Origin: Parcubacteria group bacterium
GTDB taxonomy: Bacteria > Patescibacteriota > Patescibacteriia > Buchananbacterales > UBA6539
NCBI GenBank assembly: GCA_002687175.1
Contig: NYZP01000034.1
Location: 27,951 to 91,950 of the forward strand
DNA length: 64,000 nucleotides
Reading direction: 5' to 3'
The position numbers and the translations under genes are program-made. This document shows, in pieces, positions 20,548-45,111 of this stretch (the first letter of the stretch is position 1; each line of letters opens with the position of its first letter). The notes under the pieces were generated by a model. The model did not search any database. It was not told the DNA's origin and saw only the letters and a program-made list of their open reading frames with translations.

Positions 20548-20571
20548 CATATTACCTTAAAAAATAGTTTT

Positions 20572-20760
20572 AATTTCAGGGAAGTGAGGTGTGATTCCTC
20601 CGCTGACCCGCAACTGTGAAACCTCTATCTAAATTAGGTAAGGGGTTAAGCCAGACCACTGAAATTAGAGCTAACTATAATTCACTAAGCTCTTCGAGGT
20701 ACGAGAGTCGGTGATGTCTGATATGGACATTTTCGCTCTCCCTTGAACAGGGAGATTTTT
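20572..20760 (+). promoter_or_regulatory. Cobalamin (AdoCbl) riboswitch with an SD-sequestering terminator-like expression platform
   Basis: 'cagGGAAGtgaGGTGtgAtTCCtccGCTGaCCCGCAACTGTgAA' matches the conserved 5' core of the cobalamin riboswitch. A B12-box-like 'AAGCCAGACCACTG' lies at about 20647-20660. The 3' hairpin 'ctccc ttgaaca gggag' plus U-run (20735-20760) pairs with the 'agggag' SD 9 nt upstream of the ATG at 20766. Confidence 0.7.
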
Positions 20761-40073: not shown

Positions 40074-40170
40074 GTAGATCATATAACATACAGCATGTAG
40101 CAATTAATGTTCAACAAGGCGCAGAAATGCGTTTTTTTGATTATATTTAATCTGGAGAGTTATTTTTATT

Positions 40171-40522
40171 GTCATCCCTGCGAAAGCAGGGATCCAGAAA
40201 TACTATGAGAAGTTACTATACATATATTTTAGCCAGTAAGAGAAATGGAACGCTTTATATTGGTGTTACTAATGATTTAGTCAGGAGAGTTAATGAGCAC
40301 AAAGAAGGTTTGATTAAAGGTTTTACCAGAAAATATAAAGTTAAAATGCTAGTTTATTATGAAGAATTTGATGACATTGGCTTGGCAATTCAAAGGGAGA
40401 AAAATTTGAAGAAGTGGAAGCGCAATTGGAAGTTACTATTAATTGAAAACTTTAATTCTAACTGGGAGGATTTGTACTTCAAGTTATTTTAAATGCTGGA
40501 TCCCTGCTTTCGCAGGGATGAC
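40171..40522 (+). mobile_element. Compact 352-bp mini-element: a GIY-YIG nuclease ORF bracketed by 27-bp perfect inverted-repeat hairpins
   Basis: IR-L 'gtcatccctgcgaaagcagggatccag' (40171-97) and IR-R 'ctggatccctgctttcgcagggatgac' (40496-522). Each is also a GAAA-tetraloop hairpin. Confidence 0.6.
40205..40492 (+). CDS. Small GIY-YIG endonuclease (UPF0213-like)
   Basis: 'YYTYILASKRNGTLYIGVTNDLVRRVNEH' GIY-YIG motif. The true start is the ATG at 40205. Confidence 0.7.
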   Translation: MRSYYTYILASKRNGTLYIGVTNDLVRRVNEHKEGLIKGFTRKYKVKMLVYYEEFDDIGLAIQREKNLKKWKRNWKLLLIENFNSNWEDLYFKLF

Positions 40523-40727
40523 AAATAAAGGAGCAGTACGTTAAATAGTTGCTACAGGCTTTGTGCTATATGTTACATGAAAATAGCCTAAAATAGGCTG
40601 TTTTTTTATTATGGTCGCCAAAAGTGTACTGGACAATGATGGACAGTGGATATCTTATGCTTGACAATGCTGGACAAGATCTTTAAAATTAAGTCAAGTT
40701 GACCAGATTGGTCGCTAAACAAAAACT

Positions 40728-40904
40728 GTGCCAAACTATAATGTTCTAACCCTCGAAGAGGTTGCAAAGATCATGAAGGTAAGCCTTAAAACGGTTTACC
40801 GCTGGGTTGGTTCAAAAAAATTACGGGCAGCGAAGATAGGGCACAAAACATATCGGGTTTTAGAGAAAGATCTAATTAAGTTCATAAACGATCATATGGA
40901 ATGA
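40728..40904 (+). CDS. Unannotated 58-aa excisionase/MerR-type HTH DNA-binding protein (Xis family)
   Basis: 'LTLEEVAKIMKVSLKTVYRWVGSKKLRAAKIGHKTYRV' matches the excisionase-family HTH. GTG start at 40728, stop at 40902-04. Absent from the ORF track, presumably because it is short. Two approximately 17-bp direct repeats lie upstream at 40633-40680. Confidence 0.55.
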   Translation: MPNYNVLTLEEVAKIMKVSLKTVYRWVGSKKLRAAKIGHKTYRVLEKDLIKFINDHME

Positions 40905-40955: not shown

Positions 40956-41273
40956 ATGTCACCATACTTAAGTAAAAATTACCGCTTCAAGAAAAAGCCA
41001 CGACTGCAATCGCTTCGTGAAGCCGGGCTTTTTGTTGGCTTTTCTATGTTGGCGATAATGTTGACCTTGTTTGTCTTGGGATGGATTGCCTATGCCTTTG
41101 AAGCTCAAGCCGCTTCGGGAATTAACCAACAGCTAAACTACCAGGGTAAGATGACCGATTCGTCTGGGTTGACCGTATCAGATGCTTCATGGAACTTTAA
41201 GTTTGAACCAGAGGCCACCACCGAAGAGATTGTGGTTGAGGATGGAGACACTGTGCAAACAAGTTCACTATAA
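40956..41273 (+). CDS. Hypothetical small membrane protein
   Basis: One TM helix 'LFVGFSMLAIMLTLFVLGWIAYAF'. Confidence 0.35.
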   Translation: MSPYLSKNYRFKKKPRLQSLREAGLFVGFSMLAIMLTLFVLGWIAYAFEAQAASGINQQLNYQGKMTDSSGLTVSDASWNFKFEPEATTEEIVVEDGDTVQTSSL

Positions 41274-41332
41274 CGTGTTATCCTGAACTTGTTTCAGTAT
41301 CTCATTCAACGAGATTCCGAAACAAGTTCGGA

Positions 41333-42967
41333 ATGACAATAAAAAGGTTTAAACTCATGTTTAAAATAAAAATCGCATTACTAACAGTACTGTCCGGAGT
41401 AGTTATGTGGCTGGCCCATAATTATTCTATTTTGTGGTTCGTCTCTTTGATTGGTTTAATTCCAATACTGTATATAGTCTACACCCAAAATTTAAAGCAT
41501 TATCAAAATTTTTTGGTTGGTTTTGTTGCCGGTACTATCATGCTGGCCGGTGTCATGCTGTGGCACTGGAATATGTTGCCGCTTGATTGGGCTGGCATTA
41601 ACAATTCAGCCAGCGAACTATTTTTAGTTTTTTATATCTGGATATTGTCGTCAACTACCGCTGGCCTCATTGGGCTTTGGACATTAGGCTTAGGATATTT
41701 AAAAAGAAATAATTGGTTTGACTTATTATTGGCTCCGGCGTTGTGGGTGGTGATTGAGTTTATTAGATCAATTGTTGTTTCAATTTTGTGGCATGGCGAG
41801 GGCTCGACAATTGGATCACACTGGAGCATATCTTTTGTTGGTTATGATCTAGCAGCAGCAAATTTTTTGTTACCATTTGGGGCCATCGGCGGCGTGTACA
41901 TTTTAAGTTTCATCGTTATTCTGTTTAACCTACTTTTATTTTTTTATTTCAGAGATTATTTAGAAAAACAGAATTTAACAATTCATTATAAATTAGCCGG
42001 GGTTGTTATTTTAGTTATTGTTATTTTTAACATTGGCAATTCAATTATTCGTCATCAGTCAGAGCCAGAAAAAATTGTTCCAGTGGCTGTGGTTAATACT
42101 TACTTAGAATCATTTTCGCGAATAACCAAAGATCAGTTTGGAGATATCACTGATAGCCATAAGGCTCTGCTTAGCACTATCAAAAAGGAGAATCGTTCTC
42201 CTAAAATAATAATTTTTCCTGAAGACTCAAGGTTCTTAGTTGGTTTAACAGTTGCCGAAGAACAAAATTTTTTAAAAGAAATATTTAATGATCAAGAAGT
42301 TTTAATTATTGATTCTGCAAGAATACCCAAAGAAGAAGGCAAACCAGTAGCTTTAACTTTTAATTTTTTAAACATCACGGAAGATCAAATCGTTTTTTCT
42401 GATAAACAATTTTTAATACCACATGGTGAATACATTCCTTATTTAAGCGCCGGTATTCTTAGATTAACCGGCAATGGCGAATGGGTAGATAATTTCAGTG
42501 CCTCCCGTGGATTTTCCAAAGGGAAAAATGTAAAATTAGTTGACTTTATGGATTTTAAAATTGGTGCCTTGGCCTGCTCCGAAGCAATGTCATTATCATT
42601 TAATCGTAAACTGGTTGATCAAGGAACTGGTTTTATTATAAACATAGCCTCACACTCATTATTTAACGGTTCAAAAATTTTGTATAATCAGATTTTAAAC
42701 ATGGGCAAGTTACGGGCTATTGAAAATAATCGATACTACGTTCATGCCGGAAATTTTGTTCCTTCGTTTGTTATTGATAATCAAGGCAGGTTAGTTCAAG
42801 AGTCTGATTGGGGAGAGGATTCATTAATTTATCAAGATATTGCGATTATTGAAAGTGATTCTTTCTACAACCGTTTTGGACGCTGGATCTTTTCTGGATT
42901 ATTCATACTAATTATCTTCATAGGTCTATTAGTTAGATTAAAGCCTAAATTTGGGAAATATATCTGA
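41333..42967 (+). CDS. lnt: Apolipoprotein N-acyltransferase-like (TM domain plus CN-hydrolase domain)
   Basis: Six to seven N-terminal TM helices. C-terminal nitrilase-fold domain with a Cys in 'IGALACSE'. Confidence 0.5.
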   Translation: MTIKRFKLMFKIKIALLTVLSGVVMWLAHNYSILWFVSLIGLIPILYIVYTQNLKHYQNFLVGFVAGTIMLAGVMLWHWNMLPLDWAGINNSASELFLVFYIWILSSTTAGLIGLWTLGLGYLKRNNWFDLLLAPALWVVIEFIRSIVVSILWHGEGSTIGSHWSISFVGYDLAAANFLLPFGAIGGVYILSFIVILFNLLLFFYFRDYLEKQNLTIHYKLAGVVILVIVIFNIGNSIIRHQSEPEKIVPVAVVNTYLESFSRITKDQFGDITDSHKALLSTIKKENRSPKIIIFPEDSRFLVGLTVAEEQNFLKEIFNDQEVLIIDSARIPKEEGKPVALTFNFLNITEDQIVFSDKQFLIPHGEYIPYLSAGILRLTGNGEWVDNFSASRGFSKGKNVKLVDFMDFKIGALACSEAMSLSFNRKLVDQGTGFIINIASHSLFNGSKILYNQILNMGKLRAIENNRYYVHAGNFVPSFVIDNQGRLVQESDWGEDSLIYQDIAIIESDSFYNRFGRWIFSGLFILIIFIGLLVRLKPKFGKYI

Positions 42968-45041: not shown

Positions 45042-45111
45042 CGGCGTGTAGCTCAGGAAGAGCGCCTTGCTTGGGGCAAGGAGGTCGTAGGTGAAAATCC
45101 TGCCACGCCAA
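45042..45111 (+). tRNA. tRNA-like element, possibly tRNA-Pro(UGG), with an atypical T-loop and a short D-loop (could be a pseudo-tRNA or att remnant)
   Basis: Acceptor 'cggcgtg'/'cacgcca' (C1-A72 mismatch), U8 A9, D-stem gctc/gagc, anticodon stem ccttg/caagg, loop 'cuUGGgg' (T33, G37), variable 'aggtc', T-stem gtagg/cctgc. The T-loop is 'tgaaaat' rather than TTCRANY. Confidence 0.3.

What the first reader, a model, noticed from the sequence alone, without database searches (positions are those of the whole stretch)
40171..40522. 352-bp GIY-YIG mini-element flanked by 27-bp perfect inverted-repeat tetraloop hairpins
A 95-aa GIY-YIG nuclease gene is bracketed precisely by 'gtcatccctgcgaaagcagggatccag' and its reverse complement. 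The true start codon lies 8 nt inside IR-L and the stop 3 nt before IR-R. This is a minimal, apparently mobile nuclease cassette of the homing-endonuclease or selfish type.
Basis: seen in the sequence. Interest (0 to 1): 0.55.

Follow-up and report, generated by a model that had tools for sequence, protein, structure and literature searches.

The report
SsnA nuclease gene with hairpin flanks
The 352-bp unit is real, but it is a new example of a family described in 2025: a small Ssn-type GIY-YIG nuclease gene bracketed by the DNA hairpin repeats that such nucleases bind and cut in single-stranded DNA, here in a marine Parcubacteria genome.

Summary
A perfect 27-nt inverted repeat lies at 40171-40197 and 40496-40522. 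Each arm is an 8-bp stem with a tetraloop. The arms bracket a 95-aa GIY-YIG ORF (40205-40492).

It is not a homing endonuclease. It belongs to the Ssn family (Chenal et al. 2025, PMC11893778). These are about 94-aa single-domain nucleases that bind NTS/SRM hairpin repeats in single-stranded DNA and cut just 5' of them. The arm is the Neisseria NTS consensus with two compensated stem pairs changed. The protein is 60% identical to the N. gonorrhoeae ssnA locus. Tight hairpin bracketing recurs in relatives from many phyla.

Points beyond the paper:
- The same MAG carries a second cassette between tRNA-Pro and tRNA-Gly. Its ORF is only 75% identical in DNA, with synonymous sites saturated, yet its hairpin ends are identical.
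- The closest relatives keep the ndk/HTH synteny without the cassette.
- The same hairpin occurs in at least 119 metagenome contigs, nearly always without ssnA, mostly as about 70-bp inverted doublets.
- A decayed doublet lies at 41273-41337.

Self-mobility remains plausible but unproven. Verdict: new member of a known kind, with modest interest.

The parts
40171..40197 (+). Left SRM/NTS-type hairpin (GTC head, 8-bp stem ATCCCTGC/GCAGGGAT, GAAA loop, CCAG tail). The recognised strand is the top strand.
   Evidence: It differs from the NTS consensus CGTCATTCCCGCGMAVGCGGGAATCYRG at 5 of 28 positions, and 4 of these form two compensated pairs. Covariance model R1 gives 43.5 bits, E 2.7e-9. DNA fold -8.6 kcal/mol.
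40205..40492 (+). ssnA-type gene: a 95-aa single-domain GIY-YIG nuclease (stop codon included).
   Evidence: Pfam PF01541, E 1.5e-19. 60% identity to the N. gonorrhoeae ssnA locus. More than 6,000 homologues, 67-77% identical across phyla. Y7, Y18 and E65 are invariant.
40496..40522 (-). Right SRM/NTS-type hairpin, the exact reverse complement of the left one. The recognised strand is the bottom strand.
41310..41337 (-). Third SRM-like hairpin, GTCATTCCGAACTTGTTTCGGAATCTCG (8-bp stem, 5-nt loop), in the intergenic region before lnt. Its 5' flank TTTATT is the same as that of the left hairpin.
   Evidence: Generic hairpin scan: 0.04 expected per shuffled window. R1 gives 26.8 bits, E 7.8e-5. 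Fold -6.5 kcal/mol. A similar CTGAA-type doublet sits next to an ssnA cassette in L180.
41273..41300 (+). Decayed partner of the third hairpin (GTTATCCTGAACTTGTTTCAGTATCTCA). The head has mutated from GTC to GTT and the stem has one mismatch. Together they form an inverted (+,-) doublet at 41273-41337.
   Evidence: Read directly from the sequence. The whole doublet folds at -14.3 kcal/mol, z -5.0. The model did not detect it on its own.
40116..40135 (+). Context: terminator-like hairpin after ndk. It lies inside the roughly 500-nt segment that the closest relatives lack.
40579..40605 (+). Context: terminator-like hairpin conserved in relatives, where it directly follows ndk. It marks the right edge of the extra segment.

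Best explanation
This is an ssnA cassette: a gene for an Ssn-family, single-domain GIY-YIG nuclease bracketed by two copies of its cognate SRM/NTS hairpin in inverted orientation.

Mechanism shown for Neisseria and Wolbachia homologues in PMC11893778, and inferred here: when DNA is single-stranded (replication, repair, DNA uptake), the GTCAT-stem-loop-stem-ATCCAG strand folds into a hairpin. The nuclease binds that strand sequence-specifically and nicks a few nucleotides 5' of it. It ignores the complementary strand, double-stranded DNA and RNA.

With the geometry seen here, the predicted nicks fall just outside the cassette. One is on the top strand left of 40171 and one is on the bottom strand right of 40522.

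In this Parcubacteria genome the cassette is an accessory unit. It occurs at two or more unrelated loci and is absent from the orthologous site of relatives. It relates to dispersed hairpin doublets in the way a RAYT gene relates to REPINs. Whether the nuclease itself spreads the hairpins or the cassette, or serves the host (for example by trimming incoming single-stranded DNA), is not decided.
For: Protein:
- GIY-YIG domain only, 95 aa.
- 60% identity, E 4e-38 pairwise and 8e-19 database-wide, to the N. gonorrhoeae ssnA locus, which is itself embedded in canonical NTS repeats.
- The residues mutated in the paper (Y6, Y17, E64 of the 94-aa Nm protein) correspond to the invariant Y7, Y18 and E65 here.

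Hairpin:
- It equals the NTS consensus with two compensated pair changes.
- One covariance model scores the window arms at 43.5 bits and the Neisseria NTS copies at 36-44 bits.

Family-wide anatomy, in 79 homologous genes from many phyla:
- 67 have at least one GTC-stem-loop-stem-C hairpin within 200 nt.
- 35 have the same (+) upstream and (-) downstream arrangement.
- The hairpins mostly end 1-19 nt before the ATG and mostly start 0-9 nt after the stop.
- Stems differ between loci and between the two arms of a locus, but stay paired. Seven of 8 pairs show double changes.

Accessory status:
- A second cassette lies on DJKP01000073 of the same MAG. It co-occurs with the first in three data sets at similar coverage (5.2x and 5.4x). 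It has identical 33-nt and 28-nt ends and a 75%-identical ORF with pN 0.125 and pS 0.79.
- Relatives with NDK 84-85% identical keep AdoHcyase-ComEC-MBL-RR-NDK-HTH_17 but have no ssnA and no SRM.

Dispersed repeats:
- At least 119 metagenome contigs (GC 0.33-0.68) carry the same hairpin. Only 4 have an ssnA homologue.
- 68 of 84 neighbouring hairpin pairs are (+,-), with a modal 15-16-nt spacer.
Against: - No biochemistry exists for this protein.
- The CDD family cd10448, which the paper uses to define Ssn, could not be checked.
- The paper's degenerate SRM search string does not match this hairpin, because of the T:A pair in the stem.
- In Neisseria the NTS copies nearest ssnA have the opposite orientation to those here.
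- Only three intact hairpins exist in 64 kb, so this genome has few targets for the nuclease.
- No sigma-70-like promoter is seen between the ndk terminator and the ATG.
- That both cassettes belong to one genome rests on a MAG bin plus co-occurrence and coverage.
Confidence: 0.85

Rival explanations
1. Autonomous mobile element. The SRM-ssnA-SRM unit moves itself, with the nuclease nicking at its own ends in single-stranded DNA. The roughly 70-bp hairpin doublets are its non-autonomous derivatives, analogous to IS200/IS605 or RAYT/REPIN but driven by a GIY-YIG enzyme.
For: - Terminal inverted repeats with predicted nicks just outside both ends (geometry).
- Two cassettes with identical ends at unrelated loci in one MAG.
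- Absence at the orthologous site of relatives.
- About 70% protein identity across phyla, implying horizontal spread.
- Doublets share the cassette's (+,-) geometry.
- The L030 cassette has a CCCTGC arm on the left and a TCCCGC arm on the right, like the commonest doublets.
- The paper raises the same idea.
Against: - The two copies are anciently diverged, not recent transposition products.
- No target-site duplication and no base-precise empty site were found. The extra segment in the window is about 500 nt, larger than the cassette.
- The predicted nicks fall on opposite strands, which does not excise a strand as IS200/IS605 chemistry does.
- GIY-YIG enzymes hydrolyse and do not form the covalent intermediates used for strand transfer (established knowledge).
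- No phage carriage was found in curated phage genomes.
Confidence: 0.3
2. Domesticated host function without mobility. The nuclease trims or restricts single-stranded DNA (for example DNA taken up through ComEC) at hairpin sites, as shown for N. meningitidis transformation. The flanking hairpins only regulate or mark the gene.
For: - In N. meningitidis, SsnA lowers integration of NTS-bearing DNA.
- Both paralogues are under strong purifying selection (pN 0.125 against pS 0.79).
- The hairpin ends are kept identical while the ORFs diverged, which fits selection for recognition.
- The genome encodes ComEC nearby.
Against: - With only a handful of hairpins in 64 kb there is little self-DNA marking.
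- Close relatives do without the gene.
- The ComEC neighbourhood is conserved in relatives that lack ssnA, so the linkage is coincidental.
Confidence: 0.3
3. The hairpins act at the RNA level only, as mRNA-stabilising or terminator/attenuator stem-loops of a small housekeeping nuclease gene, and have no role as DNA sites.
For: They sit immediately outside the ORF and would be part of the transcript. REP-like hairpins can stabilise mRNA (established knowledge).
Against: - No T-run follows either hairpin. Separate terminators lie at 40116-40135 and 40579-40605.
- The unpaired GTC head and CCAG tail are conserved and orientation-specific.
- The same hairpin is dispersed far from any ssnA gene.
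- Homologues bind the DNA form and not RNA.
Confidence: 0.05
4. A free-standing GIY-YIG homing endonuclease that cuts a cassette-less allele and is copied in by repair.
For: It has a GIY-YIG domain. NCBIfam gives a weak sub-threshold similarity to group I intron endonucleases (18.9 bits against a cut-off of 56). The gene shows presence/absence among relatives.
Against: - It has no DNA-binding domain (95 aa in all).
- It has no intron, intein or phage context.
- The family is specific for single-stranded DNA and recognises the hairpins it carries with it.
Confidence: 0.03

Closest known systems
Ssn family (SsnA) with NTS/SRM hairpin repeats. Chenal et al., Nat Commun 2025, PMC11893778.
   Same: - A single-domain GIY-YIG protein of 94-95 aa.
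- 60% identity to a Neisseria ssnA locus.
- The catalytic Tyr/Tyr/Glu residues are conserved.
- The hairpin is the NTS consensus with compensated changes.
- The gene is flanked on both sides. The paper reports this for 42% of homologues.
   Different: - The host is a marine Parcubacteria (CPR), a group the paper does not name.
- The hairpin variant escapes the paper's degenerate search string.
- The arms are oriented (+) upstream and (-) downstream, hugging the ORF. In the Neisseria locus examined the nearest copies are oriented the other way.
- This genome has very few hairpins rather than hundreds.
- It has two diverged paralogous cassettes with identical ends.
RAYT/REPIN systems (TnpA-REP with REP/BIME repeats)
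   Same: A low-copy gene flanked by inverted copies of a short hairpin repeat. The repeat is otherwise dispersed through genomes, mostly as inverted doublets. The hairpin is recognised in single-stranded DNA.
   Different: The enzyme is a hydrolytic GIY-YIG nuclease, not a HUH/Y1 transposase. There is no GTAG/CGTC head. This is analogous, not homologous.
IS200/IS605 insertion sequences
   Same: Small elements whose ends are hairpins recognised as single-stranded DNA.
   Different: IS200/IS605 ends are subterminal hairpins on the same strand, not terminal inverted repeats. The transposase forms covalent 5'-phosphotyrosine intermediates. Here the predicted nicks are on opposite strands.
GIY-YIG homing endonucleases (I-TevI, I-BmoI)
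   Same: The GIY-YIG catalytic fold.
   Different: Homing enzymes carry a long linker and a DNA-binding domain, cut double-stranded DNA, and sit in introns or between phage genes. None of these features is present here.
UPF0213 / YhbQ-type small GIY-YIG proteins (PDB 1ywl, 1zg2)
   Same: The nearest solved structures. They are of similar size (96-107 aa).
   Different: Only remote similarity (E 2.6e-5 and 3.4e-3). It is a different subfamily with no known hairpin association.
Neisseria dRS3 repeats / NIMEs
   Same: The stem-loop core ATTCCC-N8-GGGAAT is the same hairpin type. Copies occur as inverted pairs.
   Different: dRS3 was defined without the oriented GTC/CCAG flanks. [quoted passage not shown]

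Membership tests
Ssn nuclease family (SsnA) | Single-domain GIY-YIG protein of about 94-100 aa with no accessory domain | tested here: met
   95 aa. Pfam GIY-YIG covers residues 4-76 and there is no other domain. Homologues are 94-97 aa.
Ssn nuclease family (SsnA) | Homology to Neisseria SsnA (paper's criterion: tblastn E < 1e-10) | tested here: met
   tblastn against N. gonorrhoeae chromosomes filed as plasmids gives 59.6% identity over residues 7-95, E 8e-19. Pairwise: 53/89 identical, E 4e-38. Caveat: this was tested against the gonococcal locus, which lacks an in-frame start there, not against the N. meningitidis protein itself.
Ssn nuclease family (SsnA) | [quoted passage not shown] | not testable with these tools
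   No CDD search is available. NCBIfam has no specific model.
Ssn nuclease family (SsnA) | Catalytic residues equivalent to Y6, Y17 and E64 of the N. meningitidis enzyme | tested here: met
   Y7, Y18 and E65 are invariant in 27 homologues and align to Y, Y and E of the Neisseria sequence. The paper's mutants are described.
Ssn nuclease family (SsnA) | Gene flanked by SRM/NTS hairpins (oriented head GTC, palindrome, C after the palindrome) | tested here: met
   Both flanks carry the hairpin. There are 5/28 differences from the NTS consensus, and 4 of them are compensatory. The same covariance model hits the window arms (43.5 bits) and the Neisseria NTS copies (36-44 bits).
Ssn nuclease family (SsnA) | Match to the published degenerate SRM string HGTCWYN(0-2)YYVSBRHN(0-5)WNVSBRGN(0-2)RNCYNB | tested here: not met
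   The regex gives no match in the window. The T:A pair in the stem (CCCTGC/GCAGGG) violates the S positions. This is a limit of a hand-made search string, not of the biology.
Ssn nuclease family (SsnA) | Site-specific cleavage of single-stranded DNA 5' of the hairpin, with no activity on dsDNA or RNA | not testable with these tools
   Needs purified protein and oligonucleotides.
GIY-YIG homing endonuclease | C-terminal DNA-binding domain joined by a linker | tested here: not met
   The 95-aa protein is the catalytic domain only. TIGR01453 scores 18.9 bits against a cut-off of 56.
GIY-YIG homing endonuclease | Location in an intron or intein, or free-standing in a phage genome | tested here: not met
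   It is intergenic, between ndk and an HTH gene on a bacterial chromosome. There is no match in 50,697 phage records.
Insertion sequence / transposon | Terminal inverted repeats | tested here: met
   A perfect 27-nt repeat, or 34 nt at 94%.
Insertion sequence / transposon | Several near-identical copies in a genome | tested here: not met
   Two copies were found in the MAG. The ORFs are 75% identical with synonymous sites saturated, and only the ends are identical.
Insertion sequence / transposon | Target-site duplication and a base-precise empty site | tested here: inconclusive
   No direct repeat abuts either cassette. Relatives lack the cassette, but the indel is about 500 nt and the relatives are about 15% diverged in NDK.
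RAYT/REPIN system | HUH/Y1 (IS200-like) transposase | tested here: not met
   The gene encodes a GIY-YIG domain. The resemblance is in architecture only.
RAYT/REPIN system | Low-copy gene flanked by inverted hairpin repeats that are also dispersed as inverted doublets | tested here: met
   In this window there is only one decayed doublet.

The most novel reading that the evidence does not exclude
The SRM-ssnA-SRM cassette is the autonomous form of a GIY-YIG-driven mobile element that acts on single-stranded DNA. The roughly 70-bp (+,-) hairpin doublets found across many phyla are its non-autonomous derivatives. This would be a second, mechanistically independent 'REPIN/RAYT-like' system. Within a genome the ends are kept matched to the nuclease while paralogous nuclease genes diverge.
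Probability: 0.3. Interest if true: 0.7.

Novelty: new member of a known kind. Interest (0 to 1): 0.3.

Why it matters
The Ssn family was only described in 2025. Its role outside Neisseria, and the origin of its hairpin repeats, are open questions. This locus is a clean, minimal case: a reduced CPR genome with very few hairpins, two diverged nuclease paralogues sharing identical ends, and relatives that lack the cassette at the same site. It is therefore a good place to test whether Ssn cassettes move and whether the nuclease spreads the hairpins. It also shows that the published SRM search string misses common hairpin variants, so the reported hairpin-gene association is probably an underestimate. 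On the practical side, each new Ssn/hairpin pair is a candidate sequence-specific single-stranded-DNA cutter.

Tried and rejected
- **Rfam, whole window, gathering thresholds:** nothing at the locus, only an AdoCbl riboswitch and a tRNA elsewhere.
- **Literature searches:** COG2827, hairpin/inverted-repeat terms, REPIN/RAYT plus GIY-YIG, and the peptide strings that the hairpin encodes (VIPAKAGIQ and others) found nothing relevant. The dRS3 plus GIY-YIG search found the key paper. No later paper on Ssn is held.
- **Published NTS and SRM strings:** no exact match in the window.
- **P0004 look-up:** not on record.
- **Empty site for the second cassette, via the neighbouring sulfotransferase:** the nearest homologue is only 48% identical, so no orthologous context was available.
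- **Promoter scan:** no sigma-70-like site upstream of ssnA.
- **PADLOC:** no defence-system match for the nuclease.
- **The downstream HTH_17 / excisionase-family ORF (40728-40904) as a partner of the cassette:** rejected, because the same gene follows ndk in relatives that lack ssnA.
- **Linkage to comEC:** rejected on the same grounds.
- **The 107-aa TTG start:** rejected, because it reads through the hairpin, as do many mis-called N- and C-terminal extensions of homologues.
- **Covariation counts on A4:** these are partly circular, because the hairpins were collected by requiring a perfect stem. The non-circular evidence is the enrichment of such hairpins at fixed positions next to homologous genes, compared with shuffles.

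Full report
**1. Observation**

The sequence is as described. GTCATCCCTGCGAAAGCAGGGATCCAG lies at 40171-40197 and its exact reverse complement lies at 40496-40522. No other copy exists in the 64-kb window at up to 3 mismatches, and none appeared in 100 shuffles. Each arm is itself a hairpin with an 8-bp stem and a GAAA loop. As single-stranded DNA it folds at -8.6 kcal/mol, z about -4.4.

Between the arms lies one ORF, from ATG 40205 to stop 40490-40492. It encodes 95 aa and matches Pfam GIY-YIG at E 1.5e-19 with no other domain. The arm ends 7 nt before the ATG, and the other arm starts 3 nt after the stop.

The organism is a marine Parcubacteria-group bacterium (Tara Oceans assemblies; MAG GCA_002434675.1, contig DJKP01000003). 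All nine contigs that encode exactly this protein show the same ndk context.

**2. What it is**

The protein has more than 6,000 detectable homologues. The best 120 are 66-77% identical, even though they come from many phyla: Pseudomonadota, Omnitrophota, Ignavibacteria, Planctomycetota, Cyanobacteria and several CPR lineages.

Gene calls that start too early or end too late in homologues read through peptide strings such as VIPAKAGIQ, SWPAKAGHP or GFPSARE. IR-L read in its own frame gives exactly V-I-P-A-K-A-G-I-Q. The hairpin is therefore a family-wide companion of the gene.

In 80 loci fetched from one-genome-per-species contigs, I scanned 79 genes with a simple detector: GTC, a perfect stem of at least 6 bp, a loop, the complementary stem, then C.
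- 67 genes have at least one such hairpin within 200 nt.
- 35 have the window's arrangement, with (+) upstream and (-) downstream.
- The upstream hairpin mostly ends 1-19 nt before the start codon, and the downstream one mostly starts 0-9 nt after the stop.
- The stricter form of the detector (stem of at least 8 bp, loop of at most 8 nt) finds 0.04 hits per shuffled 64-kb window.
- Stems differ between loci, and in 19 of 21 loci between the two arms of a locus, but they stay paired.
- On 54 distinct hairpins, 7 of 8 stem pairs show changes on both sides. That count is partly circular, because a perfect stem was required when collecting them.

**3. The known family**

A literature search on dRS3 plus GIY-YIG found Chenal et al. 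2025 (PMC11893778). They define the Ssn family. SsnA of N. meningitidis is a 94-aa single-domain GIY-YIG protein (CDD cd10448). Their findings:
- It binds the repeat NTS (CGTCATTCCCGCGMAVGCGGGAATCYRG, which contains the dRS3 palindrome) only as single-stranded DNA, and only on that strand.
[quoted passage not shown] It is inactive on dsDNA and RNA.
- Y6A, Y17A and E64A abolish cutting.
- 71% of homologous genes have an SRM nearby, and 42% have one on both sides.
- In N. meningitidis the enzyme lowers integration of NTS-bearing transforming DNA.
- The authors note that NTS-ssnA-NTS looks like an insertion sequence and compare it to RAYT/REP. They show no mobility.

**4. Membership**

The window's arm differs from the NTS consensus at 5 of 28 positions. 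Four of these are two compensated stem pairs (T:A to C:G, and C:G to T:A). The fifth is the first base.

A covariance model built from environmental hairpins scores the window arms at 43.5 bits (E 2.7e-9). It scores eleven canonical NTS copies around the N. gonorrhoeae ssnA locus at 36-44 bits.

That gonococcal locus was available because two chromosomes are filed as plasmids. It is 60% identical to the window protein over residues 7-95 (E 8e-19 database-wide, 4e-38 pairwise). Window residues Y7, Y18 and E65 are invariant among homologues and align with the residues mutated in the paper.

Two items fall short:
- The paper's hand-made degenerate SRM string does not match this hairpin.
- The cd10448 assignment cannot be checked here.

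I therefore file the locus as a member of the Ssn/SRM family. The nearest solved structures are only the remote UPF0213 proteins 1ywl and 1zg2.

**5. What is added here**

(a) *A second cassette in the same MAG.* P0003 is 76% identical in protein and 75% in DNA. It lies on contig DJKP01000073 of the same MAG, in the same ENA assembly at similar coverage (5.4x against 5.2x), and in the same Tara sample. It sits between tRNA-Pro(tgg) and tRNA-Gly(tcc).
- Its ends are identical to those in the window: 33 nt on the left (ATTGTCATCCCTGCGAAAGCAGGGATCCAGAAA) and 28 nt on the right.
- The flanks beyond the ends are unrelated.
- In the ORF, pS is 0.79 (saturated) and pN is 0.125.
- So both genes are old and under purifying selection, yet all 61 end positions are unchanged. 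At the ORF's per-site identity that would have probability about 2e-8.
- The ends are therefore held constant, either by selection for recognition or by conversion. They are not recent copies.

(b) *Absence in relatives.* The closest relatives by NDK (84-85% identical) keep AdoHcyase-ComEC-MBL-response regulator-NDK-HTH_17 but have no ssnA. In them ndk is followed directly by the terminator that in the window lies at 40579-40605. A third relative carries a disrupted 23S-rRNA-IVP gene at the same spot. The extra segment in the window is about 500 nt (roughly 40074-40570) and includes its own terminator (40116-40135). This is therefore a presence/absence difference, not a base-precise empty site.

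Only 4 of these carry an ssnA homologue.
- Hairpin density in these contigs is 2.9 per 10 kb. Shuffles gave 2 hits in 779 kb.
- 68 of 84 neighbouring pairs are (+,-), the cassette geometry, with a modal spacer of 15-16 nt (binomial p 8e-27).
- These are roughly 70-bp REPIN-like doublets.
- In the protein-anchored genome loci, inverted pairs also dominate (31 against 4 direct).

(d) *Other hairpins in the window.* The model finds one more significant hairpin at 41310-41337 (-) (E 7.8e-5). Next to it is a decayed (+) partner at 41273-41300. Together they form a doublet in the spacer before lnt. A similar CTGAA-type doublet accompanies an ssnA cassette with the same arms in metagenome contig L180.

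**6. How it most likely works**

Shown for homologues, inferred here: in single-stranded DNA the GTCAT...ATCCAG strand folds, the nuclease binds it, and it nicks a few nt 5'. With the left hairpin on the top strand and the right one on the bottom strand, each strand of the cassette carries one recognisable site at its 5' end. The predicted nicks therefore lie just outside the unit, on opposite strands.

This differs from IS200/IS605 chemistry, where both cuts are on one strand and involve covalent intermediates. It would not by itself excise the element.

Whether nicking leads to copying of hairpins or cassettes through replication or repair, or serves the host in handling incoming single-stranded DNA, is open. 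My estimates are about 0.3 for self-mobility and about 0.3 for a purely host-serving role, with the remainder undecided or both.

The homing-endonuclease reading is rejected. There is no DNA-binding domain, no intron or phage context, and the family acts on single-stranded DNA.

An RNA-only role for the hairpins is unlikely. No T-run follows them, the single-stranded flanks are conserved and oriented, copies are dispersed away from genes, and homologues do not bind RNA.

**7. Verdict**

The feature is real and correctly described. It is a new member of a recently described kind, so overall interest is modest (0.3). The most interesting residue is the evidence that the cassette is accessory, that its ends are kept matched across diverged paralogues, and that it shares geometry with dispersed doublets. 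This keeps alive, but does not prove, the idea of a GIY-YIG-based REPIN/RAYT-like mobile system.

Noticed in passing
window 41273-41337: An inverted doublet of a second hairpin type (GTCAT-TCCGAA-CTTGT-TTCGGA-ATC) lies between a 105-aa ORF and lnt. The (+) copy is decayed. The ATGAC of the (-) copy supplies a possible ATG at 41333, upstream of the lnt start that gene callers use.
   Followed up: partly
window 40164-40170, 40523-40529, 41338-41343: All three intact hairpins have nearly the same AT-rich 5' flank on their recognised strand (TTTATT, TTATTT, TTTATT). This is where an Ssn enzyme would be expected to cut. It may be a target preference, part of the repeat, or just AT-rich intergenic DNA.
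   Followed up: no
window 40628-40690 (also L094 4676-4745, L095 2930-3005): Repeated TGGACAATG / TTGACAATG motifs overlap a strong promoter-like site (TTGACA-17-TAAAAT) upstream of the 58-aa HTH_17 / excisionase-family gene. They are conserved in relatives, so they are probably operator sites of that regulator.
   Followed up: no
L097 4604-5040: In a relative, the same ndk/terminator junction holds a disrupted 23S-rRNA-intervening-sequence-protein gene (PF05635, E 8e-15) instead of ssnA. Short inverted sequences (ACATATAACA / TGTTATATG) flank the extra DNA, both there and in the window. The junction looks like a hot spot for small inserted genes.
   Followed up: partly
L272 1491-1770 (N. gonorrhoeae NZ_CP119142.1, filed as a plasmid): The gonococcal ssnA homologue has no in-frame ATG, GTG or TTG before residue 25 or so and is unannotated, so it may be a pseudogene in this strain. 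Two 2.17-Mb gonococcal chromosomes are labelled as plasmids in PLSDB. Eleven NTS copies lie within 3.3 kb, mostly as (+,-) pairs about 53 nt apart.
   Followed up: no
L090 1477-2338: The second cassette is inserted in a tRNA cluster (Ile, Phe, Pro | cassette | Gly). It is followed by a sulfotransferase gene whose closest homologue is only 48% identical, so that gene is itself accessory.
   Followed up: partly
L217-L271 (IMG/VR contigs): 55 contigs classed as viral encode Ssn relatives. 15 of the 43 genes scanned have flanking hairpins, 7 of them on both sides. No curated phage genome has a match. These may be prophage-adjacent host DNA or real carriage.
   Followed up: partly
window 1-64000: Nearly all long ORFs are on the + strand. 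An AdoCbl riboswitch lies at 20553-20717 and a tRNA at 45042-45111.
   Followed up: no
L056 (contig binned as Halobacteria archaeon): An ssnA homologue with a canonical NTS (CGTCATTCCCGCGCAGGCGGGAATCCAG) lies on a contig assigned to an archaeal MAG. This is either transfer into archaea or a binning error.
   Followed up: no
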